Shown: in pieces, positions 15,240 through 32,519 of the stretch | How the letters are laid out: each line of letters opens with the position of its first letter | Position numbering within the stretch: position 1 is the stretch's first letter | NCBI GenBank assembly: GCA_951406725.2 | Contig: OX597831.1 | Coordinates: 46,996,001-47,060,000, forward strand | Direction: 5' to 3' | Length of the DNA stretch: 64,000 bases | Source: Octopus vulgaris | Lineage: Eukaryota | The notes under the pieces: generated by a model | Database searches by the model: none | What the model was told of the DNA's origin: nothing | What the model saw: only the letters and a program-made list of their open reading frames with translations | Position numbers and translations under genes: made by a program

Positions 15240-16778
15240 ACTAGCCTAAGTACCCGGCGTTGCTCGGAAGTTTAAAGAATGCTAAAGGAATTATATTCAT
15301 TCTGATAAAAAAGATATTTTCTAAAAAATTCTATCAGATGACGTGAGTATAAACAAAGTTATTAAAACAAATCCTGAAAACAATCACAGTTTAATTTTGT
15401 AGAACTTCTAAATATACAATGTTTTCAGTGTGTCCTTTAATTGTTGTACAAAGAAAAAGAGTTTGGGGACTTCCAACTCGCGAACATCTTACATATAATT
15501 GTCAATGAGAGAAGCAAGGAGAAGCAAGGTTAAGTCCAACAACGAAGAGAGATTGTGCTTGAGATTTGTTCATGGACATGGGAACTGGAGCCGTCTAGAT
15601 TCATAGAAGTCAGATGGGATTAATGGGATCTGTGGAATGAAGACATCGTCACTTTTATATTTCCCAAGAAAAATAATTTTGGCGATAAGGACTAAACCTC
15701 GTTTCATTATCGCAATTAAAAAGCGTTTTTCTTTATTAAAAAAAAAAAGAGGTGCGGTCGTAGACGTTTGACGCAAAATTATTCAATATTGTATTTCCTT
15801 CTACCAGAATCGTTTACCTTCAAAGCGAAAAAACAAAACCGACGTATACGACAGGTATGTAAAACATATTTGTTTTTGAAAAAAAGTTTAAAATTTAGTG
15901 AACTCCCCGGACCCGAACCTTCGCCGAGTAATGAAAAACCTCCATTGATCCAGCGGTTTGGACGTGCAGAACATTAGGCCGTATGACTAGGGGGAAATTG
16001 TAGATTCGATTTCTGAGGTAGGACCAATATCCAAGTAGAAATAGTCACATCGGATTCAAATATGAAATATCGAAACTCTAGCTAATTTTATTAGGTCCAT
16101 TCCACGAATTATTTGAATAACTCGTGTTGATATCTCTACCTTATGTCACGGGAATATTGAACTCTAAATTTTATAAAGTTTATCGTATAAATTGAAAGAT
16201 ATCCTATAGTGTATAAGCGCGTGTCCGTATGAACACCTTTCGAGAAACCTTACTGTTTCTTTTTCTTTAAACCTCTTGTTTCATTATCACAATTAAAAAA
16301 GTGTTTCAGAATCGTTTACCTTCAAAGCGAAAAAACAAAACCGATGTAATTTCCAGACAGACAAATTTGGTACAGGTTGACCCAGCGGTTTGGTCGTGCA
16401 TAGAGGAAACACACACACAAACAATAAGAATAAAAGTGAAACAATAAAAGTGAAACCATAGCGTTATGAAAAGTGAAACTATTATACCGCTGAAAAAAAT
16501 CAGAAGGATCGTATGAACAAGGACCAAAATTTGACCCCACCCCCCACAACCTTCTCCGAGTAATGAAAAACCTTCATGCCAAATTTGGTATTATAACCTT
16601 GAAAAAGAAAAATTGGAAAGGTCGTAGGGGGGGGGGGGGACTACAGCCCTCTATATGGGCAAGGGCCAAAATTTGACAGCCCTAGAACCTTCCCTGAGTA
16701 ATGCCAAATTTGGTACAGGGTGATCCAGCGGTTGGGCCGTGCATAGAGGAAACACATACACAGGGTTTTATATAGAGA
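15240..16778 (+). mobile_element. Non-autonomous Helentron/HINE-like rolling-circle element with internal repeats
   Basis: The 5' end is ACTAGCCTAAGTACCCGGCGTTGCTCGG. There are three diverged copies of ...CCAGCGGTT(T/G)GG.CGTGCA(TAGAGGAAACAC), and the end is ...GGGTTTTATATAGAG. No coding capacity. Confidence 0.55.
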
Positions 16779-16919
16779 GTCAAGACTATTGAAAAGGTTG
16801 CCAGACGCAACGAAAATTTTAGGAAAATAAAAATGAGGAATAAGTGGAAATTTTACCGGTGAGTGTGTTAAATTATAAGGCACAAAAAGAAAATTATTCT
16901 CCCCAGACACAACAGAATA
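16778..16919 (+). repeat. Single copy of the repeat that forms the 25195-25589 fold-back; hammerhead-like head
   Basis: Near-identical to 25450-25589. The core TTGAAAA is at 16789-16795. Confidence 0.8.
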
Positions 16920-16959
16920 ATGAAAGCAATTTTACATTAATCTGATGGATTACTCTATA

Positions 16960-17148
16960 CTTTTGTACAATACAAATTTATTGTTCTTAAACAAGAATGT
17001 CGTTGACAGTAATTTCAAAGTTTCAGCTAGCTAAGCCGTTGTTGGACTGTCCGACGATGGGTGAGTTGGCCGAAACTTCGAAGTCACTGTTTAAGAATGT
17101 GTGAGTGTGTGTGTTAAAAAAATATAAATGATGAAGTGTTGTACAATA
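16960..17148. repeat. Diverged fold-back element with a hammerhead-like motif
   Basis: Imperfect palindrome centred at about 17048, containing CCGACGA...GGCC-GAAACTTCGAAGTC-ACTGT at 17051-17090. Confidence 0.65.
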
Positions 17149-17354
17149 TCAACTTCTGTTGAATTAAAATAAACTGATTAGTCTAGGGGACATGTGAATT
17201 CCTCCTCCTACTCCTTTTGTGCAAAATACAGTGAAGGGTGTTTGTAAGATGACATTCCATGAAGTGGGGTACAGAGTACCATAAAGTCGAGTACCACTCA
17301 TGTTGAGTAACACTTGAAAATGAGAAAGTGTGTTTGTGTACATTATGTTATATA

Positions 17355-17573
17355 TTTCTTTATTACCCACAAGGGGCTAAACACAGAGGAGACAAACAAG
17401 GACAGACAAACGGATTAAGTCGATTACATCGACCCCAGTGCGTAACTGGTACTTAATTTATCGACCCCGGAAGGATGAAAGGCAAAGTCGACCTCAGCGG
17501 AATTTGAACTCGGAACGTAACGGCAGACGAAGTACGGCAACGCATTTCGCCCGGCGTGCTAACGTTTCTGCCA
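17355..17573 (-). mobile_element. SINE family C carrying a Meta/MESC-like central domain
   Basis: The minus strand contains GCCTTTCATCCTTCCGGGGTCGATAAATTAAGTACCAG. Further copies lie at about 18120-18335, 18595-18782, 19120-19360, 21763-21995, 27055-27255, 28645-29055, 29105-29335, 31760-32208, 49447-49900, 52820-53025 and 58090-58215. Confidence 0.85.
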
Positions 17574-20395
17574 GATGTTATACAACAACAAGAAACTTAA
17601 CATTCAACAGATACAAAACAAACGTAGTTATTTTTTCATTAAAAAGACTTTTTTTTCAATTTCTTTATTTCCCATACAAGCATTTAAATAAACCTCACAC
17701 CTATCAGACTTCATGTTTCTCCATATATAATTACATACATTGTTTCATTTTACAATACTTTTACAAGACAATGTTTTTCATTTATTCATTTTTTTTAAAT
17801 TTTTTCTTTCTTTTTTTTTTTTTTGTCAGTTGGTAATAGTGGGTGCTTATCATTTATTTTCATTCTTTGCCAAAGAAATGTAAAAAAAATAACTGCTTCT
17901 ACCCTGAGATCTAACTAGAATTTTAAAACAGTTTTAGAGAAGAACTAATTGGTATTACTGTCAAAAATCAAACACACGTTAATGTAAAGGCCATTCTTCT
18001 ACCCCATGGGAAATAGGTAATCAGTCCAATGAGTTTGAAGACTTGAAGCGGTAAAATCCAGGAGTTGATAATGATAATGATGATGTTGATGATTCCTCAG
18101 GAACACTACAGTACTAATATTGGTTTTAAATTTTGGCACAAGGTCAGCAAGTTTCGAGGAGGGAGTAAGTAGATTACATTGACCCCAGTGCACAACTGGT
18201 ACCTATTTTATCAACCCCAAAAGGATAAAATACAAAGTCAACCTCAGTAGAATTTGAACTCAGAACATGCAGATAGAGAAAATGCCACTAAGCATTTGGC
18301 CCAGATTGCTAATGATTCTGCCAGCTTGCCACCTTACTACAAGCACTAATATTGATTTGTACTATGAGCTTCAGATTTCAGGAGTAGGGTCTAGTCAAGT
18401 GAGATCGGCTTCAGTACCTGTCTGATATATGGAAATATTTTATCAACCCCTGAATATGAATGCAAGAGCTAACCTTGGTAGGATTTGAAACTACAACATT
18501 AAGAAGCACAACAAAATACAGTATGGTCTTTTGTACAACTTTTTATCAACTCTGTTAAACTGCTGCCTAAATATTTATTTTTTTCATTGTCCTCAAGAGA
18601 CAACCAAGGACAGACAAAGGAATTAAGTTGATTACATCGACCCCAGTGCATAACTGGTACTTATTTAATCGGTCCTGAAAGGTTGAAAGGCAAAGTCAAC
18701 CTCGGCAGAATTTGAACTCAGAACGTAGCAGCAGACAAAATACCACTGAGCATTTCGCCCAGCATGCTAACGATTCAGCCAGAGTACCAGGACTTAAAAT
18801 TTTAGGAGTAAGGTACAGTTAATGAAGATCAACCCCAGATCTCGACTGGTCCTTATTTCATTGACCTAGGAACAATGAAAGTAAAGATGACTCTGGGAAG
18901 TATTAAAATTACCACCAAAGGGACATTTTGTACAGTGATGTACCAATTCTGTTAAAACCTCAACTTTAGGAAATAGGTATCATTGATGACATCAACCCCC
19001 AATTCTTGACTGATATTTCTTTTGAAGAATGAAAAGCAAAGTTTAAAACTGTGAAACTAAATATCACAAGGCTTTCAGCCTGTCATTTTAATAATTCTGC
19101 CAATCCACTGCCTCAATATTGTTCAAATTTTGGTACAAGGCCAGTAATTTTAGAGGAGTTGGGAAGGAGGGGCTAATCAATTACACTGACAGTCTCACTC
19201 CACCGTACTTGACTGGTCCTTTATTATATCAATCCTAATCCTGAAAGGATTCAGGCAAAGTTGATCTTGGCAAGATTTGAACTAGGGATGTAAAGAACCA
19301 GCAGAAATGCCATTAAGCATTTTGCATGATGTTCTAACAATTCTGCAAGCACACTGCCTCAATATTAGTAACAGTATAGGGATTTAATAGGACTTTGCTT
19401 CTTGGTAGGGCTTCTTTTTTTTTTCAACTTTCCAACTGAAATGAAACCACAATTGGATGGCATAGTAATACTATCAAACGGCTGGCAGATGCTTTACTCC
19501 TGACTGGCTCTGGGTAAGAACAATAAATCAGTGCAGATTTTGTTTTCCAAAGATAGCACAGACTTCCAACAATGACCTACGCTGTTCAAGAATTTGGACC
19601 TGGAGATCTCCATTTCCAGCGACTTCAAGGGCCACCTCCTAGTGGTGTTGGGCGTCAACAAAGAGCCCTTGACTACAACAAGACAACCAAAGTTTTTTTT
19701 TCCCAAGGTCTGGGGTCTTCCACCCCTAAGCCCTAGACCATCACCTAATCACCCTTACCCGTCTTGTTGCTTAACAACAACAACAATAATAATGACCTGC
19801 TGCAAACATGCTGTATCAAAGACTCAGTTCAGCTGGACACCCCAATATGTTTGAGGCCCTCATATATTACAAAAAGCTGAAATGCTGGACACCCTAATAT
19901 GTTTGAGCTCCTCATATATAAGAAGAAGCTGAAATGCTGACCACTTATTTTATTAATGCTGAGAGGATGACAGGTTAAACTAGCCCAGTTGAAATTAGAT
20001 CTGCAGGCCTGCAGACTTGATACTTGTAACCAGCAAGAATCATTCTTAGTGCTTTTATATTTGTGTCAATTTGCAATACAACAGAAAAATGTAAACTATT
20101 TCATAGACAACATAACTGTGAATTCTAACTCATCTCAATAACAAAGTTGAACCGATTCAGGATTGTAAAGAAGAATAGAGTAAGCAGATACAATTACATC
20201 AATCTGATCTTTGTGTACAGAATTGAAGAGAACAGTTCAGTACTATGCAATAACAACGAAGGAGAGAAAATTGTGAAAATTCTTTTAAATAAAAACTCCT
20301 GTTTTGGGGTGTTTTTCCTCAAGTCTTTAGAGAATTTAGAATTGAAATTTTACCAAAAGCTAGAGATTAAATTATTCATGGAATCATCATCTATT

Positions 20396-21414
20396 TTAAT
20401 GAAATGTAAAATCATCTAGTGATGGAGAGTCAATTTCAGATTGGCTCTGAGAGAGATACAGACTGTCGGAATCCAAACTCATTGGATCGTTTTTCAAAGA
20501 CAAACTATCTTCCAGAAGAACAAGAGAAGAGACAGGCTCTGAAGTAAGTCTTTCAGCATCATCAAAGTCAAATGTTAGATTGACATCAGAAGAACAACTT
20601 TCGTCTTGGGTAGATGTTAAAAATAAAGTCATTGAACTTTTGGAATCAATAAAGGGTGAAAAAACTAATGAATTGGAATCTTCAGTGTAATCACCACGAC
20701 CAACACAGACACCATTCATAACATCACAGCTGTCATCGATATTGTCATTGTAATCTTCACCAATGACAATATCAGCCCCATCATCTTCGCTATCATCATC
20801 ACAACCACAAGTAGTGACAGTGGTACCCACAGCATTTACAGTGACCTTGTGATCTTCAGGAAGCAGTGACAAGTATAAATCTGCATTGTCTGGTAGTTTG
20901 GTAATTTCTCGGGGCCTTCTTGGTAAAAGAGTACTTGTATTTTTGGTATGGCAATCCTTAAGTCCATATTTATTATTTTCCGAGTTTATTTGTTGAAGAA
21001 CTCTGCGGTTCTGACTGTGATCAGCAACTTTATTGATGGTATGGTCAACAGAATGGTCAGTGGCGTTACAATCTTGCACTTGATTCAAACTTCTTTCTTG
21101 TCCTTCTGATAAAACATTGATTCTTTCACGAAGCGGTGTAACATTTTGATGCAAATCAAGCCTTTCATAAGAACTGCGACGTGGTGATGCCAAAAGTGAT
21201 TGTTTTGTTGACTTGTACTGATCGTTTCTGGTAAAATTAGACTCTTTCTTTGGTACTAGAATGTGATCATAAAATGAGATACCTTTACAATCCACAGAAA
21301 GATCGGGTTTGAAGTGTTGGCTGTTATTTATTTCCATAACTGCAACAGGATCAGGTTTCAATTCCATCTCTATCTCAGACCCTCCTCTCACATGCGATGG
21401 CTTCACTATACCTC
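20396..21414 (-). CDS. Gene A terminal coding exon (acidic, Ser/Asp-rich, probably disordered); putative AUNIP-like protein
   Basis: About 1 kb of open, non-repetitive frame. The acceptor cattgcAG is at 21416-21415, and phase 1 matches the upstream exon. The stop is at 20396-20398. Confidence 0.85.
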
Positions 21415-22471
21415 CTGCAATGTAGACAACAAGGTTCTGTTAATAACTTGATAATCAAAGAAGGACCTGAAATATACAACTGTATTAAAAACAACAGTAC
21501 AGGCAAAAAGAGCAATTTTGTGGAGGCTGTAGCAGATGAAGCAGTACTACTGAAGTCTATGAATGGAGTGGTGGCTGTACAAGTAATCAGTTATTTACTG
21601 ACATTCCATCAGTTACGAAGGGCAAGAGTTCCAGCTGATCCGATCAATGAAACAGCCTGTGAAAGTGGCTGAGCACTCCACAGATTCATGTACCCTTAAT
21701 GTAATTCTCAAGGAGATTCAGCGTGACACCGAATGTGACAAGACTGGCTCTCTGAAATATGAAGGCAGCGAGATGGCAGAAACGTTAGCACACCGAGCGA
21801 ATTGCTTAGCAGTATTTCTTCTGTCACTATGTTCTGAGTTCAAATTCTGCTGAGGTCGACTTTGCCTTTCATCCTTTCAGGGTCGATTAAATAAGTACCA
21901 GTTACGCACTGGGGTCAATATAATTGACAGTCTATTTGTCTGTCCTTATTTGTCCCCTCTGTGTGTAGCCCCTTGTGGGCAGTAAAGAAATAAGAAATAA
22001 GACTGGCTCTTTGAAATATAGGTACAACTCACTTTTGCCAGCTGAGTGAACTGGAGCAATGTGAAATAAAGTGTCTTGCTCAAGGACACAACACACTGCC
22101 AGGAATTGAACCCATGACTTTATGATCATGAGATGAATGCCCTAACCACTGAGCCATGTGCCTTCAGTCAATTATGTTATTTAGAAGGTAGCTGAAAAGA
22201 GTGGTCCTAATTATTATAGTGATGTAGTAGCTATAATGATAAGGTGGAGCCACATAGGAGTGGTTATAGTAATGTAAAAGTCTGGTTCTTACAAGACTTT
22301 ATTCAGAAATAACAATGAAAAAAAAATTACAATACTTCAAATAAAGCACAAGGTTTTTCTCACAGCCCACGCATATAGTGGTAACTAGTACATGTTGTTT
22401 CTAGTAACAATATAGTAACAATATAGTAACAATATACATGACAACTAGTACTGCTCCTAATAATTGAGGAT

Positions 22472-22765
22472 TATCATCATCATTGTTTAACGTCCGCTTT
22501 CCATGCTAGCATCGGTTGGATGATTTGACTGAGGTCTGGCGAACTAGATGGCTGCACCAGGCTCCATTCTGATCTATCAGAGTTTCTACAGCTGGATGCC
22601 CTTCCTAACGCCAACCACTCCGAGAGTGTAGTGGGAGCGTTTACGTGCCACCGGCATGAGGGCCAGTCAGGCGGTACTGGCAACGGCCACATTCAAATGG
22701 TGTTGTTTGTATGCCAACTGCACAGGAGCCAGTCCAGCAGCACTGGCAACAACCTCACTCGAATG
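22472..22765 (-). mobile_element. RTE-LINE 3'-end fragment with (GAT)n tail
   Basis: CATCAT...TTTAACGTCCGCTTTCCATGCTAGCAT...GCTGGATGCCCTTCCTAACGCCAACCA is the same sequence as the 3' UTR of the RTE at 60750-61828. Other copies lie at about 23070-23260, 23475-23760, 32760-33130, 38438-38735, 39030-39190, 51610-52095, 52268-52372 and 59622-59779. Confidence 0.8.
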
Positions 22766-24029
22766 TTTTGGCCACAGAGAGCAACAGGAGACTGGGGACA
22801 GTACAAGGATAAAATGCAAAAATATTGCGGGTTCAAAATGGATAAAAAGGGTAAAAATCACAATAACATATATGAAAATGAAGGAAAATATTAAAGAAAA
22901 AATAATGATATTAATAACAACAGACAAAAACATGAGTGCATGGTTAAGAAATCATTTTTGAAGTCACACAATTTCAGGTTCAATCTCACAGCAAAGCAGC
23001 TAGGACTTTTACTATACGTAAATCTGATATAAATAAATTAAGCAGAACCTACCATATGCGTATATCAATATGCTGTGCTTGAGAAGACTTGTCCAGCCTA
23101 GTGAAAGTGTAGTCGTGGCCAATGCTGGTGTCACTAAAAAGCACCCATTACTCTTGGAATGGATGGCATTAGGAAGGACATCCAGCTTACCAGTTTCAGT
23201 CAAACCGTCTAACCCATGCCAGCATGGAAAGCAGACGCTAAATGATGATGATGATGATGTATATATTGTTTGTGCATATGTGCATGCACACGCATGTATT
23301 TATGTGTTTGCGTTAATCTCTCTTCCCAGCTTCTCTTAACGTGATATCACTTGACACCAATGATTGATTGTGTCCTCATAATTTAACATCTTGGAAAAAC
23401 AGAGAGCAACAAAATAAACACCAGTCATTAATAATAAACACTGTGTAACAAAATTGTGCTATTTTCTATTTGCTTCATCATCATCATTTAACGTCCGCTT
23501 TCCATGCTGGCATGGGTTGGACGGTTTGACTGAGGACTGGCGAGCCAGATGGCTGCAACAGGCTCCAATCTGATCTGGCAAAGTTTCAACAGCTTGATGC
23601 CCTTCCTAACGCCAACCACTCCGAGAGTGTAGTGGGTGCTTTTACGTGCCACCAGCACGAAGGCCAGTCAAGCGGTACTGGCGACGGACACGCTCAAATG
23701 GTGTTGTTTATGTGCCACCTGCACAGGAGCCAGTCCAGCGGCACTGGCAACAACCTCGAAGACAACAAATTTCCAGCAATTTGATTTTTAGTAATTAAAA
23801 GAGATCAGAAGCAATGTTCTACACAAAAAAGTTCAAAGCACACCTGAGAAGCAATTATACTGTGTACTCAAATCTTCAAGAACTATCTAGAAATCAAAGG
23901 AAATGATTACTCTTCTCTTCAAACTTTGTTTTTGTCACCCAGTCATCAATGCTTTGAAACTGACCGATTTTCGATTACATTCCAGAAAAATTCAGTACTG
24001 AGTTGCTGAAGCAGAAATATTGTTATAGC

Positions 24030-24680
24030 AAATATTCTGCACAATACCACAGTTTTGCTTGTCAGTTGCTTGACCATAACACTTGAACATGTCTCTTAGT
24101 GGCTGACAATATGTGCATCTCTGATCATGAGCAGAAGTAGTAGGGGAGCATCACAGCCATGTGTTGAGAGGGATTCTTTAGGGTTTGAATGTAACAAAAG
24201 CAAAGTTTGAAGGAAATACTGTTAACACAAGAAACATATTCAAGAATACCTTATACCATAATCTAGGTAACTGGTTTTATCTTTCAGCTCACAATAATAG
24301 TTTTACCCTTTGGTTACCAGCCCGGCTGAAACTGCCTCTGGCTCTGTAGTACAAATATCTTGTATTTAAAAGTTTTGAATTAAAATCTTCCACCAAACCT
24401 TAGTCACAATTTATGTTCCTAACCCTAGCTGAATGATAATTAAGTTATTTTACTAAATTCTTTGTTATATTCAAAGTAATTGAAAGAAACAGAACATCTC
24501 AAAATAAATACAGTAACGAAAGGATTCAACTCAAATCAAAAAATACCTTAGGAATGAGAACCCAGATTCGAAATTCCTCAAGACACCTGATGAAGGCTGG
24601 AGGGTGCATCAGCCGAAACGTTGTGTTAACAACAAAAAAAAAAAGGGACAAATGTCCGTCAAATGTAAATAATGTTCATA
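24030..24680 (+). mobile_element. Penelope pLTR-like repeat ending in a hammerhead, interrupted by a TTAA-type MITE (about 24302-24529)
   Basis: The HHR is at 24582-24627. The internal insertion has decayed ends TTTACCCTTTGGTTAC and GTAACGAAAGGATTCAA. Confidence 0.55.
24582..24627 (+). ncRNA. Minimal type I hammerhead ribozyme motif, canonical core
   Basis: GACAC-CTGATGA-A-GGCTG-(10 nt loop)-CAGCC-GAA-ACGT-T-GTGTT. Stem I is GACAC/GTGTT, stem II GGCTG/CAGCC, and stem III is the palindrome ACGT. Confidence 0.8.
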
Positions 24681-25194
24681 ATTGTTTAACACATTTTTAA
24701 AACATAAAATAGTCAAACCAAAATACTATTAACCTTTCTCACAACGATGCAGTTTTTCTTCTCAAAACTCCCAACTTTAGAATTTCCATTGCTTCGTGGA
24801 CCATAATATTTCACAAGATTTTACAATTGTTACTATCAACCTTTAATGCCCTCACATTGCTGTAGCTACAAACCTACAATTCAAATACTTTCTGCCACAC
24901 CTAATACACAGAAGCACTGCACTAAGAACTTAATATATCTTTTATTAACACCTATTCATAAGACATCAACTATAGATCACATTTTCACACCACCCTCCAT
25001 TATGTGAATTTTTCCTATAGTTAAAAAATAAATAATTTACAATTAAAAAAAAGAAATCAAACATTGAACGTTAAATTCATTTCATATTCCCTCTCTAAAC
25101 AGTGACTCACTTCCAATCTCTTCAACAGCAGAAAATGCAGATAAAATTCGAGTGGAAAGAATATAATAGACTAGTAAGGGAAGTAACTCTTTAA

Positions 25195-25589
25195 ATTCTG
25201 TTGTGTCTGGGAAGACTCATTTTCTTTTTGTGCCTTATAATGTAACACACTCACCGGTAAAATTTCCACTTATTTCTTATTTTTATTTTCCTAAAATTTT
25301 CTTTACGTCTTGCAACCTTTTCAATAGTCAAGACTATTGAAAAGATTGAAAAGGTTGCATGACGCAACGAAAATTTTAGGAAAATAAAAATAATATTTCT
25401 TATTTTTATTCTCCTAAAATTTTCTTTGCGTCTTGCAACCTTTTCAATAGTCTTGACTATTGAAAAGGTTGCAAGACGCAATGAAAATTTTAGGAAAATA
25501 AAAATAAGAAAAAAGTGGAAATTTTACCGGTGTGTGTGTTACATTATAAGGCACAAAAAGAAAATGACTCTCCCCAGACACAACAGAAT
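25195..25589. repeat. 395-bp compound palindrome of four alternating-orientation hammerhead-like units
   Basis: The outer arms are reverse-complementary, with symmetry centres near 25330, 25395 and 25453. The unit is CTA-TTGAAAA-G-GTTGC-AAGAC-GCAAC-GAAAATTT-TAG. Confidence 0.85.
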
Positions 25590-26026
25590 ATGCTTCAACA
25601 CACGATCTCATATACAGAAACTTGCAAACCAAATCCAAAAACGAAATAACTCTTTGAAACTAACGTAAAACTAGAGTTGGGTGGAGTAGTTTTATCCGAC
25701 ACAATGGTGCAATACTTTAATCTGAAACAGGGCAACACATTTCACATAGAAAGTTGAAAATGCATAGAAAACTATTTCGCCTTTGTTTCATTCGTAATTG
25801 TATATATCAAAATTATGAATGACGTTTTTTCAATCATTAGAATGAACTTTCTCAAGTCTTAAATTACAATTTTTTAAATCCCAGTGTACCAATATGGCAC
25901 AGCATACCGTTTAAGAACCATAATAAAGGTATGATAAAGGTAAAAAAAAAAAAGAAATCATAGCTTTTAAATAAACTTTTTTTGCTACCACCTTGCTGAC
26001 TGGGTAAATAACAGACAAGATGTAAT

Positions 26027-26598
26027 TTAATCCTTTGGTATTCTGATTACTCAGTCAAATGTAATCCTTATTTATTCACATTGTTTAGAATTAATCAGGC
26101 ATTATCTTGTAGCTTTGATATTTCATTGATCTGATTGCATATTTTTACAATGACATTGTAAGACAGGTGTGAGAGGCTGGATCTGGCTGGTTTAAACATG
26201 AAACAGTCTGAATATTTTGGATGGATATGGCTGGTTTAAATATGAAGGCGCATGGCTCAGTGGTTAGAGCGTCAAGCTTATGATCGTGAGGTTGTGAGCT
26301 CGAATCCAGGACCGGGCTGCGTGTTGTGTTCTTGAGCAAGACACTTTATTTCATGTTGCTCCAGTTCACTCATCTGTAGAAAGGAGTTGCGACGTTACAG
26401 GTGCCAAGCTGTATTGGCCTTTGCCTTTCCCTTGGATAACACTGGTGGCGTGGAGAGGAGAGGCCGGTATGCATGGGCGACTGCTGGGCTTCCTTAAACA
26501 ACCTTGCCCGGACTTGTGCCTGGGAGGGTAACTTTCTAGGTGCAATCCCATGGTCTGTGTCGTGACCGAAGGGAGTCTCAGAAATGCTAAAGGGTTAA
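26027..26598 (-). mobile_element. piggyBac-type MITE (TTAA ends) interrupted by a family D SINE at 26245-26580
   Basis: Ends are TTAATCCTTTGGTATT and AATGCTAAAGGGTTAA. The body matches copies at 58934-59162, 59414-59803 and 62636-62862. Confidence 0.8.
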
Positions 26599-27582
26599 GC
26601 ATGAAAGTTTTAAGAAAGCATTTTATTACGATGTTTTAATAAGTAGTAATTGTACATTCCACAATTAGTGTTCCCCTAAAGAATAGCTAATTGTATTACC
26701 TGGTCTAGGTGCAGTTGTATGTTCTGAATCAATGCACAAGGTGAGGTGGCATTTGGTTACATCCGTATATCTAAAACAAATTTACTGTTCCGGATTCCAA
26801 GTTCAGTTATCAACCCCACACAAAAACAATGATGTCAATATAATTAAGAGAAATCAGTATAACCATGGTTCAATTACAGTAACTGGTGGGGGAAAAAATA
26901 CTTTATATACAGGTGCAAACATGGCTAGGTGGCTAAAAAGCTTGCTTTGCAACCAAGTGGTTTCAGGTTCAGTCCCACTGCATGGAACCTAGGGCAAGTG
27001 TCTTCTATTATAACCCCAAGCCAACCAATGCCTTGCGAGTGCATTTGAAACCTATTTCTTTATTACCCACAAGGGGCTAAACACAGAGGGGACAAACAAG
27101 GACAGACATAGGTATTAAGTCGATTACATCAACCCCAGTGCGTAACTGGTACTTAATTTATCGACCCCGAAAGGATGAAAGGCAAAGTCGTCCTCGGCGG
27201 AATTTGAACTCACAACGTAACGCAGACGAAATACCGCTAAGCATTTCGCCCGGCGTTTGAAACCGTGTGCAAGCCTACTGTATATATGTATGTTTATGTT
27301 GCCCCCCACCACCACCACCACCACCACCATCGCTTGACAATTGCTATTGGTTTGTTTACACCTGCCTAAACTTGGCAGTTTGGTAAAAAGGGACCAACAG
27401 AAATAAGTACTGGAGTTGATTTGTTCAACTAAACCCTTCAAGGCAGGGCTCAAAGACAAGCCACAATCCAATGACTGAAACAAGTAAAAGAATAAAATAA
27501 TAGCACATGTGCATGTGTGAATAGAGAGAGAGAGAGAGAGAGAGAGAATGGGGGGAAGAAATTGATATTAAGGTAATGTTAC

Positions 27583-27754
27583 CTAGGTTTTTATCAAGAT
27601 ATGTTTGCCCTCCTTTCAACAAGTAACTGGTCATCATCGTTTGGTGAGTTGGAATGGATAACTGCCTGGGAGGTGGTGAGTTCTGTGTCAGCTTCCATGG
27701 ACCAGGCAACTTCCTAGCGCTTGAGATCTTCTTTGGCATACTTCGCATAGAAGC
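27583..27754 (-). CDS. Gene A internal exon (ASMRSMPKK...KLTQNSPPPRQLSIPTHQTMMTSYL...NLG)
   Basis: ttgtttcAG acceptor and G|GTAACA donor; 172 nt, phase 0 in and phase 1 out, consistent with both neighbouring exons. Confidence 0.8.
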
Positions 27755-29416
27755 CTGAAACAAGGAACACAGTAAAAGTTTAGTCAGCAAAATTCAGTAT
27801 TTGTGTGTGGTTAGGGAGCTTGCTTCCTAGCTACATGGTTTCGGGTTCAGTCCCACTGCGTGGCACTTTGGGTAGGTGTCTTCTACTATAGCCCCGAGCC
27901 GACCGGAGCTTTGTGATTGAATTCGGTAGGTGGAAGTTACTGCCGTGTGTGTATGTGTGCGTATAGCTGCTCAGTGCCTCTCCGAAAGAGAGAGAGGGAT
28001 ATCTTTTACTTTTATTTTTGTACTTGTTTTAGTCATTAGACTACAGCCATGGTGGGGCACTGCCGTGAGGAATTTCTTTTAGTCAAATAAATCAACCCCA
28101 GTCCTTTCTGCTTTTTTTTTTAAAGTCTGGTACTTATTCTATCAATCTCTTTGCCGAGCTGTTATGTTAGAGGCACAAAATCACAGACACGGACACACGT
28201 GTGTGTGTGTATAAAGTCATAAATGACAAATAGCTTGGTGAAATTTTAATTAACAATAAGAAAACTCTAATATCGTGACAAATTGTTTCATGACTTAAAA
28301 ACATGTAGATAATTTATTATTAAAAGTAATAATATAAATTATTTACATGTTTTAAGTTACAAAACAATTTGTCGTGTTATTAGAATTTTCTTGTTGTTAA
28401 ATAAAATTTTAACAGAAAAATCTTATGTGGACCTCCATGCCACCCAAGACTATGTGGACCTCAGTTGAAAACCACTGCTTTAGGGGTTGATAAATAAAGT
28501 ACCAGTCTTGTACAGGGGTTGATTCTTTCTGCCCATTTGTCTCACTTTCTGGAAGCGATCAACTCTAAGTGAGGGAAAGGCCTGCTAGGCCAGAAAACGT
28601 TCAACTCATACCATATGTTATGACAATATTTCAATGGGCCAAGTTGGTGAGCTGGCAGAATCGTTAGCATGCTGGGCAAACTGTCTAGCAGCATTTTGCC
28701 CACCCTATATTCTGAGTTCAAATTCCACTGAGGTCGACATTATTTTTCAGCCTTTCAGGATCAATAAAGTAAGTATCAGTTAAATACTGGGATCAATGTA
28801 ATCAACTTATCCTCTGCTCTGATTTTGCTGGCCTTGTGCCAAAATTTGAAACCAATATTCAAATGGGCCAAACAAAATGTTTGGTGGCATTTTGTCAATC
28901 TTTATATTCTGAGTTCAAGTTCTGCCGAGGATAACTTTGCTTTTTATTCTTTTGGAGTTGAAAAAATAAGTACCAGTTGAGCATTGAGGGTCAATGTAAT
29001 TGACTTACCTCCTCACATGAAATTGCTCACCTTGTACCAAAATTAGAAACTGATATTTCAAAGGCCCAGTTAACAATTAGATGGCCTGTAAAGGTGCACA
29101 CATAAGGCGGCGGCTGGCAGAAACGTTAGCACGCCGGGCAAAACGCTTCACAGTATTTCGTCTGCTGCTACTTTCTGAGTTCACATTCCACCAAGGTCGA
29201 CTTTGCCTTTCATCCTTTTGGGGTCGATAAATTAAGTACCAGTTACGCACCGGGGCCGATGTAATCGACTTAATCCGTTTGTCTGTCCTTGTTTGTCCCC
29301 TCTGTGTTTAGCCCCTTGTGGGCAATAAAGAAATATATACAAATACACATGTGTGTGTGTGTGTGTATGAATGTAATGTGTGTGTGCATGTGTGTCTCTC
29401 TCTCTGTTGCAAATGA

Positions 29417-29772
29417 GGAGTGGCTGTGTTGTAAGTAGGTTGCTTACCAACCACATGGTTCCAGGTTCAGTCCCACTGTGTGGCACCTTGGGCAAGTGTC
29501 TTCTACTATAGCCTCAGGCCGACCAAAGCCTTGTGAGTAGACAGAAACTGAAAGAAGCCCATTGCATGTGTGTGTGTGTGTGTACATGTTTGTCCCCCAC
29601 CATCGCTTGACAACCAATGTTGCTGTGTTTACACCACTGTAACTTAGCAGTTCGACAAAAAGAATCCGATAGAATAAGCACCAGGCTTACAAAGTATATG
29701 TCCTGGATTCGATTTGTTCGACTAAAGGCGGTGCTCCAGCATGGCCACAGTCAAATGACTAAAACAGATAAA
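29417..29772 (+). mobile_element. Family A SINE
   Basis: Full head, body, (TG)n and tail layout. Confidence 0.88.
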
Positions 29773-30124
29773 AAAAACAAAAACAATATACAGGAGATTC
29801 ATTCATTTGCTTGTACTGCTGGCGATTCTACTCAAGTTACTCACAAAAAGGAAGCTAGCTCAGGAGATTTTCATTCAAACGCATTATATATCGACAATGT
29901 TCAAGTGCAATCTTTCCTTCTTTTTTCTTATAGGCATATTTTTGATATTTCCTTATTAGTCCTTTATATTTAGTTTGAAACAAGATATCTCAAAATATTG
30001 CTGGACTAATAAATAAGGAACACTACATATCCTTGTCATTCAAGCATACTTAGAAAGTAATGTGTTCTCATTTTATTATAATATTTGATATTCCCTAAAA
30101 GTAAATTACTCATTCTCTCTCTCT

Positions 30125-30176
<52 letters not shown>

Positions 30177-30191
30177 CATGCATGCATATAT

Positions 30192-30357
30192 AGGCGTAGG
30201 AGTGGCTGTGTGGTAAGTAGCTTGCTTACCGACCACATGGTTCAGGGTTCATTCCCACTACGTGGCACCTTGGGCAAGTGTCTTCTTCTATAGCCTCGGG
30301 CTGACCAAAGCCTTATGAATGGATTTGGTAGACGGAAACTGAAAGAAGCCCATCGTA

Positions 30358-30397
<40 letters not shown>

Positions 30398-30616
30398 CGT
30401 TTGTGTGTCTGTGTTTGTCCTCCCAACATCGCTTGACAACCAATGCTGGTGTGTTTACGTCCCCGTCACTTAGCAGTTCGGCAAAAGAGACCGATAGAAT
30501 AAGTACTAGCCTTACAAAGAATAAGTCCTGGGGTTGATTTGCTCAACTAAAGGTGGTTCTCCAGCATGGCAACAGTCAAATGACTGAAACAAGTAAAAGG
30601 GTAAAGAGTAAAAGAG
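30192..30616 (+). mobile_element. Family A SINE, near consensus
   Basis: Full layout with internal (TA)n and an AGTAAAAG-type tail. Further copies lie at 32322-32722(-), 38355-38921(-), 54345-54730(-) and 61829-62190(+). Confidence 0.9.
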
Positions 30617-31140
30617 TATATATATATATATATAGCTACTATATACACATAGACATACACACACACACATATATATATATATTTATACACACATATATAT
30701 GCATACATATACACATAACTACATATACGCATAACTACATACATGCATAAGTACATACACGCATAAGTACATATACGCATAAGTACATATACACATAAGT
30801 ACATATACATATATGTGTATATTACATATACACATATATATATATCATCATGTACTTTTTGAACAAATGATATGATCAAGCTTTTGTTCTGAAAGTGAAA
30901 TAAATTATATCATGGAAGTTATAATAGCCATTTAAAATAACATATAATGTGGAATTCACTTTCATTTTGGTTTTTATTACATTAAATTCCATAGAGTATT
31001 TATTCTTTTCTTTCCTTCTCTCTTATGTGTCATGTCAGTCGCATACTGTGAGAATAAATATTATGAACAAAAATATGGACTCAGTAACATTGCTAGAGGT
31101 TTATATTAAAAGACAGTTTTATATTGCATATATATGTATT

Positions 31141-31180
<40 letters not shown>

Positions 31181-31181
<1 letters not shown>

Positions 31182-31444
31182 CAATTGCAGTGTGGAAGGT
31201 GTTTGTAAGCCATTTAAGAAACACACAAAAGCCGTTCGATTCACTTCAACGTTTAAATTTAATTTGTCAAAATATTTTCGTCGCTATAAGACCGCAACCT
31301 GTTCGCGGATTTTTGTCAGTGAACAGGTTGCGGTCTTATAGCGATGAAAATATTTTGACAAATTAAGATTAAATGTTGAAGTGAATTGAATGGCTTTTGT
31401 GTGTTTCTTAAATGGCTTACAAACACCTTCCACACTGCAACTGT
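31181..31444. repeat. Fold-back element (about 124-bp arms) with a G3-C8 hammerhead-like motif
   Basis: Arms 31181-31304 and 31321-31444 are near-perfect reverse complements, and the element sits in a (TA)n tract. The motif is at 31312-31362. Confidence 0.88.
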
Positions 31445-32519
31445 TTTCGTTCCAGCACACGATCTCAGATCAAATCACTTGCTATGCAAGTACATCTCCT
31501 ATATATATATATATAAAGTTAATCCAAACATGAAAACACAAAGAGAAAACACAACAACGCGAGGACGTGGAACAAATATAGTAATAGAAAATTATACAAA
31601 CAGCAGTGTGCAATGTTTTACCAAAAAGGAAAACTATAACTGCCACCAAATATGAGTAGTGTGTTAGAAACACCAACATTGCTAGAAATAAGAGCAAAAA
31701 TGCGCCAGTGCATAATCATATACCTATATACTGACAGGGACTATAATTACCCAAAAATGTGGTGGTGAGCTGGCAGAATCATTAGCACGCTGGGTGAAAT
31801 GCTTAGCAGTATTTCATCTGCCGTTACGTTCAGAGTTCAAATTCTGCCAAGGTCAACTTTGCCTTTCATCCTTTCGGGGTCGATTAAATAAGTACCAGTT
31901 ACACACTGGGATCGATGTAATCAACTTAATCCCTTTGTCTGTCCTGGTTTGTTCCCTCTATGTTTAGCTCCTTATGGGCAATAAAGAAATAAGAAACGTT
32001 AGCACACCGGGTGAAATGCTTAGCAGTATTTCGTCTGCCATTACGTTCTGAGTTCAAATTCTGCCGAGGTCGACTTTGGCTTTCATCCTTTCGGTGTTGA
32101 TTAAATAAGTACCAGTTACGCACTGGGGTCGATGTAATCGACTTAATCCCTTTGTCTGTCCTGGTTTGTTCCCTCTGTGTTTAGCTCCCTGTGGGCAATA
32201 AAGAAATATATAATCACCCAAAAACCTTGATCGAGAATTCCCTATACTGACCAGTCAGTTTTGTCAATTTCTGCTGCGCCATCAGTAAGGACTGCCATAC
32301 ATACATATATATATATATATTCTTGTATTTGTTTCAGTCATTTGACTGTGGCCATGCTGGAGTACTGCCATTTTTAGCAGAACAAATCGACCCCAGGACT
32401 TATTCCATGTAAGCCTAGTTCTTATTACATCGGTCTCTTTTGCCGAACCGCCAAGTTATGGAGATGTAAACACACCAGCATTGGTCGTCAAGCAATGAGG
32501 TGGGGACAAACACAAACAT

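What the first reader, a model, noticed from the sequence alone, without database searches (positions are those of the whole stretch)
16786..31362. Three minimal-hammerhead repeat families that covary at the catalytic 3-8 base pair (C-G, U-A, G-C)
Seen: three distinct repeats share one layout of stem I, 7-nt core, extra purine, 5-bp stem II, GAA, palindromic stem III, U and stem I'. The cores are CUGAUGA (24587-24593), UUGAAAA (16789-16795, 25460-25466 and three more units) and GUGAACA (31319-31325). U4, G5, A6 and A9 are constant, while positions 3 and 8 change together. Established: C3-G8 is a tertiary Watson-Crick pair of the hammerhead core, and minimal HHRs with palindromic stem III occur in Penelope-like elements and cleave as dimers. 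Inference: these are natural core-variant ribozymes kept by selection in active non-autonomous retroelement lineages, and a CUGANGA pattern search would miss them.
Basis: partly seen in the sequence, partly recalled or inferred. Interest (0 to 1): 0.8.

Follow-up and report, generated by a model that had tools for sequence, protein, structure and literature searches.

The report
Swapped-core hammerheads in Penelope retrotransposons
Three repeats here carry small hammerhead-shaped RNA motifs, and related jumping-gene families swapped one paired couple of core letters independently (C-G, U-A, G-C), which likely means the self-cutting fold is kept by selection; the U-A form is published, I found no paper with a natural G-C form, and cutting is untested.

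Summary
Observation confirmed: 4 descriptor hits in the window, 0 in 100 shuffles. All three are minimal type I hammerheads of Penelope-like elements (PLEs). 'Non-autonomous' is wrong for two of them. B (U3-A8) and C (G3-C8) are 3' ends of coding RT + GIY-YIG families (motif downstream of the endonuclease in 23 of 30 and 27 of 30 loci). A (C3-G8) looks like a tRNA-headed SINE, unrelated to them. A third sister family, H, keeps C3-G8 in a homologous repeat. B groups with H, not C (p-AU 0.0009), so the two swaps were independent. An older B subfamily carries a U3.G8 wobble, the likely intermediate. Against strict selection: no compensation among copies within a family, a small G3.G8 excess, and A9C in the longest-ORF H copies. 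No cleavage evidence was obtainable. Natural U3-A8 and U3.G8 PLE cores are published. Natural G3-C8 was not found in 5 searches, but Lunse 2017 was not readable. This scan noted the G3-C8 family before on other DNA of this genome. Verdict: new variant of a known kind.

The parts
24582..24627 (+). Family A minimal hammerhead, canonical C3-G8; predicted cut after 24622
24535..24682 (+). Family A element, 5'-truncated; longer copies elsewhere carry a Pol III B-box upstream (SINE-like head)
   Evidence: B box in 18 of 30 loci
16786..16822 (+). Family B hammerhead, U3-A8, stem I 3 bp, intact G10.1-C11.1; predicted cut after 16819
16778..16919 (+). Family B solo repeat without tail
   Evidence: self-BLAST
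25195..25589 (.). Family B inverted-repeat insertion holding four hammerhead units (25346+, 25460+, 25447-, 25324-)
25457..25493 (+). Family B hammerhead unit, U3-A8, G10.1.U11.1 in this copy
25564..25646 (+). Inferred ORF start (ATG at 25564) and one-sided tail of family B, homologous to the start of the H ORF
   Evidence: B frame read by eye
31312..31362 (+). Family C hammerhead, G3-C8, stem I 7 bp; two G.U pairs in stem II in this copy; predicted cut after 31355
31180..31445 (.). Family C inverted-repeat insertion; minus arm core broken at the inversion point
31412..31499 (+). Inferred ORF start (ATG at 31412) and one-sided ~55-nt tail of family C

Best explanation
The motifs have the layout of the minimal type I hammerheads of Penelope-like retrotransposon terminal repeats; B and C are 5'-truncated, often folded-back ends of two coding sister families, and their swapped 3-8 pairs likely persist because a cleavage-competent core is selected in each family's source copies. 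Shown: layout, linkage to RT + GIY-YIG ORFs, homology of the B, C and H repeats, and B grouping with H rather than C. Inferred: C3-G8 is ancestral; B went C-G to U.G to U-A; C reached G-C separately. In a partial-tandem transcript the hammerhead lies about 100 nt before the ORF start and would cut weakly, as a dimer through palindromic stem III and/or helped by the element's protein. Inserted short copies, the window's among them, likely decay neutrally and are likely inert.
For: Linkage from the ORF side: B motif ~200-750 nt after the GIY-YIG match in 23 of 30 loci; G3-C8 motif 839-1240 nt after it in 27 of 30 loci, 27 of 27 G-C. Open frames of 665 aa (B, L366) and 1025 aa (C, L492). GIY-YIG over the Pfam cut-off for B and C pieces. 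H has a repeat-ORF-repeat copy whose tail runs into a 1312-aa frame (L298). B, C, H repeats align, with matching tail peptides. Tree (C,(H,B)), SH-aLRT 97/100; B+C rejected, p-AU 0.0009. In metagenome relatives a motif lies 100-170 nt after the ORF in 13 of 18 loci with downstream sequence: 9 C-G, 2 U-A, 2 U.G, 0 non-pairing; 5 of the 13 read by eye. Older B0 subfamily: 78 matches = 36 U-A, 33 U.G, 6 C-G, 2 C.A, 1 U.U (counted by eye); 23 of 30 G8 loci are B0; diversity 0.20 against 0.11, with U-A copies nested in the B0 grade at SH-aLRT 90-93. C subfamilies differ at 5 loop-II columns and at no core or stem column. Engineered C3G/G8C partly restores cleavage of a PLE hammerhead, which needs the element's protein (PMC11167929).
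Against: No cleavage data for any copy. Within families there is no compensation: of the first 100 of 365 C3/A3 matches only 2 are Watson-Crick. Among C2-type copies lacking C8, the first 100 of 233 are 43 G, 42 U, 15 A: a transversion as common as the transition suggests a G3.G8 source was copied, though it has no firmly linked diagnostic site. H copies next to the longest ORFs carry A9C (18 of 29 collected H motifs) and a non-palindromic stem III. The U3.G8 lineage amplified. B has a 3-bp stem I and an AAUU self-duplex of +2.2 kcal/mol; C -0.2. Hammerhead mutants did not reduce insertion in vitro, and no RNA-seq ends were seen at the cut site of a PLE (PMC11167929). 5 of 18 metagenome loci showed no motif (two had only 77 and 250 nt downstream). 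Both trees are quick searches without bootstrap.
Confidence: 0.68

Rival explanations
1. The hammerheads are passengers. Cleavage is not needed for mobility, and the pair swaps were fixed by drift through successive source copies under at most weak selection.
For: Amplified U3.G8 lineage, G3.G8 excess, A9C in H copies with long ORFs. Insertion was unaffected by hammerhead mutants in vitro (PMC11167929). Craig et al. raise that hammerheads may simply parasitize PLEs (PMC8557442).
Against: Five inferred departures from C-G in this clade end in four Watson-Crick pairs and one wobble, none mispaired. G3-C8 needs two transversions, and the other core letters and all stems are kept while the repeats diverge by about half.
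Confidence: 0.2
2. Selection acts on the fold, as a protein-binding or RT-positioning structure near the ORF start, and not on cleavage itself.
For: The PAc hammerhead cleaves only with protein, and uncut RNA is the main template. The dimer helices of B and C are weak.
Against: The 3-8 pair is a contact of the active conformation (established knowledge; PMC3088659), and G12, A13, A14 and H17 are kept.
Confidence: 0.1
3. B and C are palindromic DNA-type miniature repeats that resemble hammerheads by chance.
For: Many copies are short inverted repeats. No Rfam hammerhead match.
Against: Fixed position behind RT + GIY-YIG ORFs, homology to the canonical-core H repeat, one-sided tail typical of PLEs, 0 control matches.
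Confidence: 0.02

Closest known systems
Minimal hammerheads of metazoan PLE terminal repeats, including the U3-A8 variant of Schistosoma mansoni Cercyon (Cervera and De la Pena 2014, PMC4209133)
   Same: Extra nucleotide after A9, short helix I, palindromic helix III, location in the terminal repeat, inverted pairs. Their Fig. S3 lists the same UUGAAAA core (S. mansoni 4) and a U3.G8 core (Saccoglossus 1), both marked as PLE-associated.
   Different: No G3 core in the Fig. S3 rows I saw (supplement part 2 of 3 plus passages; file 1 not searchable). No homologous three-state series or intermediate subfamily is reported in the text I read.
Natural U3-A8 hammerheads (Perreault et al. 2011, PMC3088659, section 8)
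   Same: Natural covariation of the 3-8 pair to U-A.
   Different: G3-C8 is not named as natural in that section.
Engineered C3G/G8C double mutant (PMC11167929 for the anole Poseidon hammerhead; PMC8495972 passage)
   Same: Same G3-C8 core; partial rescue of cleavage.
   Different: Laboratory mutant; here it is the majority state of a natural family with thousands of copies.
C-terminal EN+ PLEs with a Zn-finger-like linker (Neptune and Nematis clades; Craig et al. 2021, PMC8557442)
   Same: RT, CxxC linker, C-terminal GIY-YIG, inverted 5'-truncated copies, one-sided tail, many insertions beside (TA)n.
   Different: Tail ~55 nt against the 30-40 described; clade not tested against reference sequences.
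Small PLE-associated hammerhead variants that cleave as dimers (Lunse et al. 2017; title seen in a reference list only)
   Same: By title, the same class.
   Different: Not readable; it may already include G3-C8.

Membership tests
Minimal type I hammerhead (PLE type) | Core U4 G5 A6 A9, G12 A13 A14, A15.1-U16.1, H17 | tested here: met
Minimal type I hammerhead (PLE type) | Watson-Crick 3-8 pair as family majority | tested here: met
   97 of first 100; 27 of 27; exceptions B0 U.G and C2 G.G
Minimal type I hammerhead (PLE type) | Helices I and II form; palindromic helix III | tested here: met
   B helix I only 3 bp
Minimal type I hammerhead (PLE type) | G10.1-C11.1 pair | tested here: met
   family majorities; G.U in the window copies at 25460 and 31319
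Minimal type I hammerhead (PLE type) | Self-cleavage after H17 | not testable with these tools
   only assembled contigs were available
EN+ Penelope-like element (B, C) | RT plus C-terminal GIY-YIG upstream of the repeat | tested here: met
   GIY-YIG over cut-off; RVT_1 not hit for the C piece, RT read from the YVDD motif and 27-29% tblastn to RVT_1-bearing families
EN+ Penelope-like element (B, C) | Inverted 5'-truncated copy and one-sided tail | tested here: met
EN+ Penelope-like element (B, C) | Partial tandem with the repeat on both sides of the ORF | tested here: inconclusive
   seen for sister family H (L298); not seen in the B or C loci fetched
Neptune or Nematis clade | Phylogenetic placement with reference elements | not tested
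   no named references held; CxxC linker seen by eye only
Non-autonomous element or retrozyme (B, C) | No coding parent; tandem monomers | tested here: not met
   coding parents found; one local 166-nt tandem array, L046
tRNA-derived SINE (A) | Pol III A and B boxes at the head | tested here: inconclusive
   B box upstream in 18 of 30 loci (box motifs recalled and read off); no Rfam tRNA match in 5 loci; coding partner not sought

The most novel reading that the evidence does not exclude
Family C is the first natural, active G3-C8 hammerhead, fixed in a young coding PLE family, and the B lineage preserves the compensatory route C-G to U.G to U-A as dated subfamilies: genomic evidence that PLEs need a cleavage-competent core in vivo, and a ready natural allelic series to test it.
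Probability: 0.35. Interest if true: 0.65.

Novelty: new variant of a known kind. Interest (0 to 1): 0.45.

Why it matters
What the hammerhead does for Penelope-like elements is open: it is called unclear, possibly parasitic (PMC8557442), and was dispensable for insertion in vitro (PMC11167929). Independent compensated swaps of a catalytic-core pair in sister families are a comparative sign of selection on the active fold, and they supply natural C-G, U.G, U-A and G-C alleles for assay. In practice, CUGANGA descriptors miss about 9,800 exact B/C motif matches in this genome (9440 + 365), so reports that an element lacks a hammerhead should be rechecked with positions 3 and 8 left free.

Tried and rejected
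Rfam over the window: no hammerhead among 111 matches. Sequencing runs: no RNA holder listed; four guessed-RNA runs laid on a C copy were contigs only and cannot show ends, so no verdict on expression or cleavage. Pfam GIY-YIG search as a route to the parents of A, B, C: it returned other families, and the L089 overlap was coincidental. A same-strand B pair 3 kb apart (L215) was a local duplication without a PLE ORF. An open frame across the C hammerhead was dropped: the frame homologous to H starts about 90 nt after the core. Per-position deviation rates are biased by how loci were collected and are not used as a selection test. G3.G8 as the ancestral intermediate of C: no firmly linked site in 9 against 39 copies, not shown. 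The stem II difference between B and C (U-A against C-G) is not counted as covariation, since two CpG-type changes give it. Literature searches for a natural G3-C8 core found engineered cases only. Lunse 2017 and Arkhipova 2017 were not held. Findings (split-core hammerheads) do not bear on this.
Full report
Observation. A descriptor with positions 3 and 8 free finds 4 motifs in the window and none in 100 shuffles. Helices I and II are the predicted pairs in the five cut-outs folded. B's helix I is 3 bp. The window copies at 25460 and 31319 have G.U at 10.1-11.1, and both sit in long inverted repeats predicted to fold as single hairpins, so they are likely inert. Rfam reports no hammerhead here.

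Abundance. The window lies in a 2.8-Gb animal genome. A relative that its source names Octopus vulgaris (P0007) is nearly the H protein described below (compared by eye), so the host is probably an octopus. A shared B/C pattern has 9440 exact matches with U or G at position 3 and 365 with C or A; the controls have 0. Of the first 100 listed U/G matches, 97 are U-A or G-C. Of the first 100 C/A matches only 2 are Watson-Crick; the rest look like single changes. Copies therefore decay without compensation after insertion, as expected.

What B and C are. Most top-scoring copies are ~140-220 nt, often with an inverted arm that lacks a ~55-nt tail. Craig et al. describe this as typical of PLEs (PMC8557442, passages). 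Longer copies lead upstream to RT + GIY-YIG ORFs. Starting from the endonuclease, the B motif follows in 23 of 30 loci and the G3-C8 motif in 27 of 30, all 27 G-C; open frames reach 665 and 1025 aa. B and C are thus truncated ends of coding families. A differs: 18 of 30 loci have a Pol III B box upstream, suggesting a SINE-like element, though Rfam finds no tRNA in 5 loci. Its coding partner was not sought.

The real covariation test. A third family, H, has a repeat-ORF-repeat copy (L298) and a C3-G8 core. The B, C and H repeats align; the hammerhead lies about 100 nt before an ATG, and the tail encodes matching N-terminal peptides. Protein trees give (C,(H,B)), and a B+C clade is rejected at p-AU 0.0009 (quick trees). 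Among 34 metagenome relatives, 18 had sequence after the ORF; 13 show a motif 100-170 nt downstream: 9 C-G, 2 U-A, 2 U.G (5 read by eye; three pairs of loci are near-duplicates). No G-C was seen there. With C-G ancestral (inference by parsimony), U-A arose at least three times in this clade and G-C once. An unrelated young PLE family in the genome also carries U3-A8 (18 of 18 collected).

An intermediate. A loop-marked subset of B has 36 U-A, 33 U.G, 6 C-G, 2 C.A and 1 U.U among 78 matches. Of 30 fetched G8 loci, 23 belong to a distinct subfamily, B0. B0 is more diverse (0.20 against 0.11; both inflated by flank noise), and the U-A copies nest within it at SH-aLRT 90-93; one U-A copy lies in the B0 grade. 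The route C-G, U.G, U-A is the simplest reading. For C, an excess of G3.G8 exists (43 G, 42 U, 15 A in the first 100 of 233) but is not shown to be ancestral.

Mechanism. In a partial-tandem transcript the hammerhead would cut upstream of the ORF start, as a dimer through helix III and/or with protein help. Basis: PMC4209133 (main text parts 1-2 of 4) found low cleavage of dimers only; PMC11167929 (section 3 part 2) found protein-assisted cleavage, lost in C3G and G8C and partly restored in the double mutant. Nothing here shows cleavage. Against strict need: B0 amplified with a wobble, a G.G source may have been copied, H copies with the longest ORFs carry A9C, B's dimer helix is unstable alone, and insertion in vitro did not need cleavage.

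Comparison with print. Natural U3-A8 is in PMC3088659 (passages and section 8) and in PLEs in PMC4209133, whose Fig. S3 has the same UUGAAAA core and a U3.G8 core (supplement file 2, part 2 of 3 and passages; file 1 could not be searched). G3-C8 appears only as an engineered mutant in what I saw. Searches found no natural case. Lunse 2017, the likeliest place, and Arkhipova 2017 were not held. Also seen: bioRxiv 10.64898/2026.07.22.740005 part 1 of 5 and passages of PMC6765202, PMC7229834, PMC6155905. Earlier notes of this scan record the G3-C8 family elsewhere in this genome; they are not independent support.

Verdict. Real hammerhead-layout motifs of a known kind. U-A is known; the natural G-C family, its coding parent and the wobble intermediate are the addition. 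New variant of a known kind, interest 0.45.

Noticed in passing
L298 minus strand; L268-L301: Family H: abundant PLE with a 1312-aa frame; copies with the longest ORFs have core CUGAUGC (A9C) and non-palindromic stem III, others keep A9. A9C also occurs in metagenome locus L302.
   Followed up: partly
L128 about 500 nt after the ORF; L129: Another PLE family has a hammerhead-like motif with a C at position 4 (core CCGAAGA), the same in both loci.
   Followed up: no
L122:5883 and 13 of loci L061-L090: Young 781-aa RT + GIY-YIG family with a U3-A8 hammerhead (UUGAUAA); many intact frames in the genome.
   Followed up: partly
upstream of family C, e.g. L255:9140-9165: A branch-point, pyrimidine-tract and AG motif ends 23 nt before the core (536 exact copies). 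Many copies are truncated there, and 101 have AGAG in its place: possibly templates from spliced RNA.
   Followed up: partly
L046:736-1700: Local tandem array of ~166-nt family C units, retrozyme-like; several units have damaged stem II or G12.
   Followed up: no
L079:27, L267:7863-, L252:5271/6697, L263:5109: Further hammerhead motifs: two more U3-A8 types and two canonical ones.
   Followed up: no
L089:1095-1300: A repeat that shares the 3' half of family C but has a different 5' part without the hammerhead.
   Followed up: no
window 20396-21439 minus: 347-aa open frame with no Pfam match; perhaps a host exon.
   Followed up: partly
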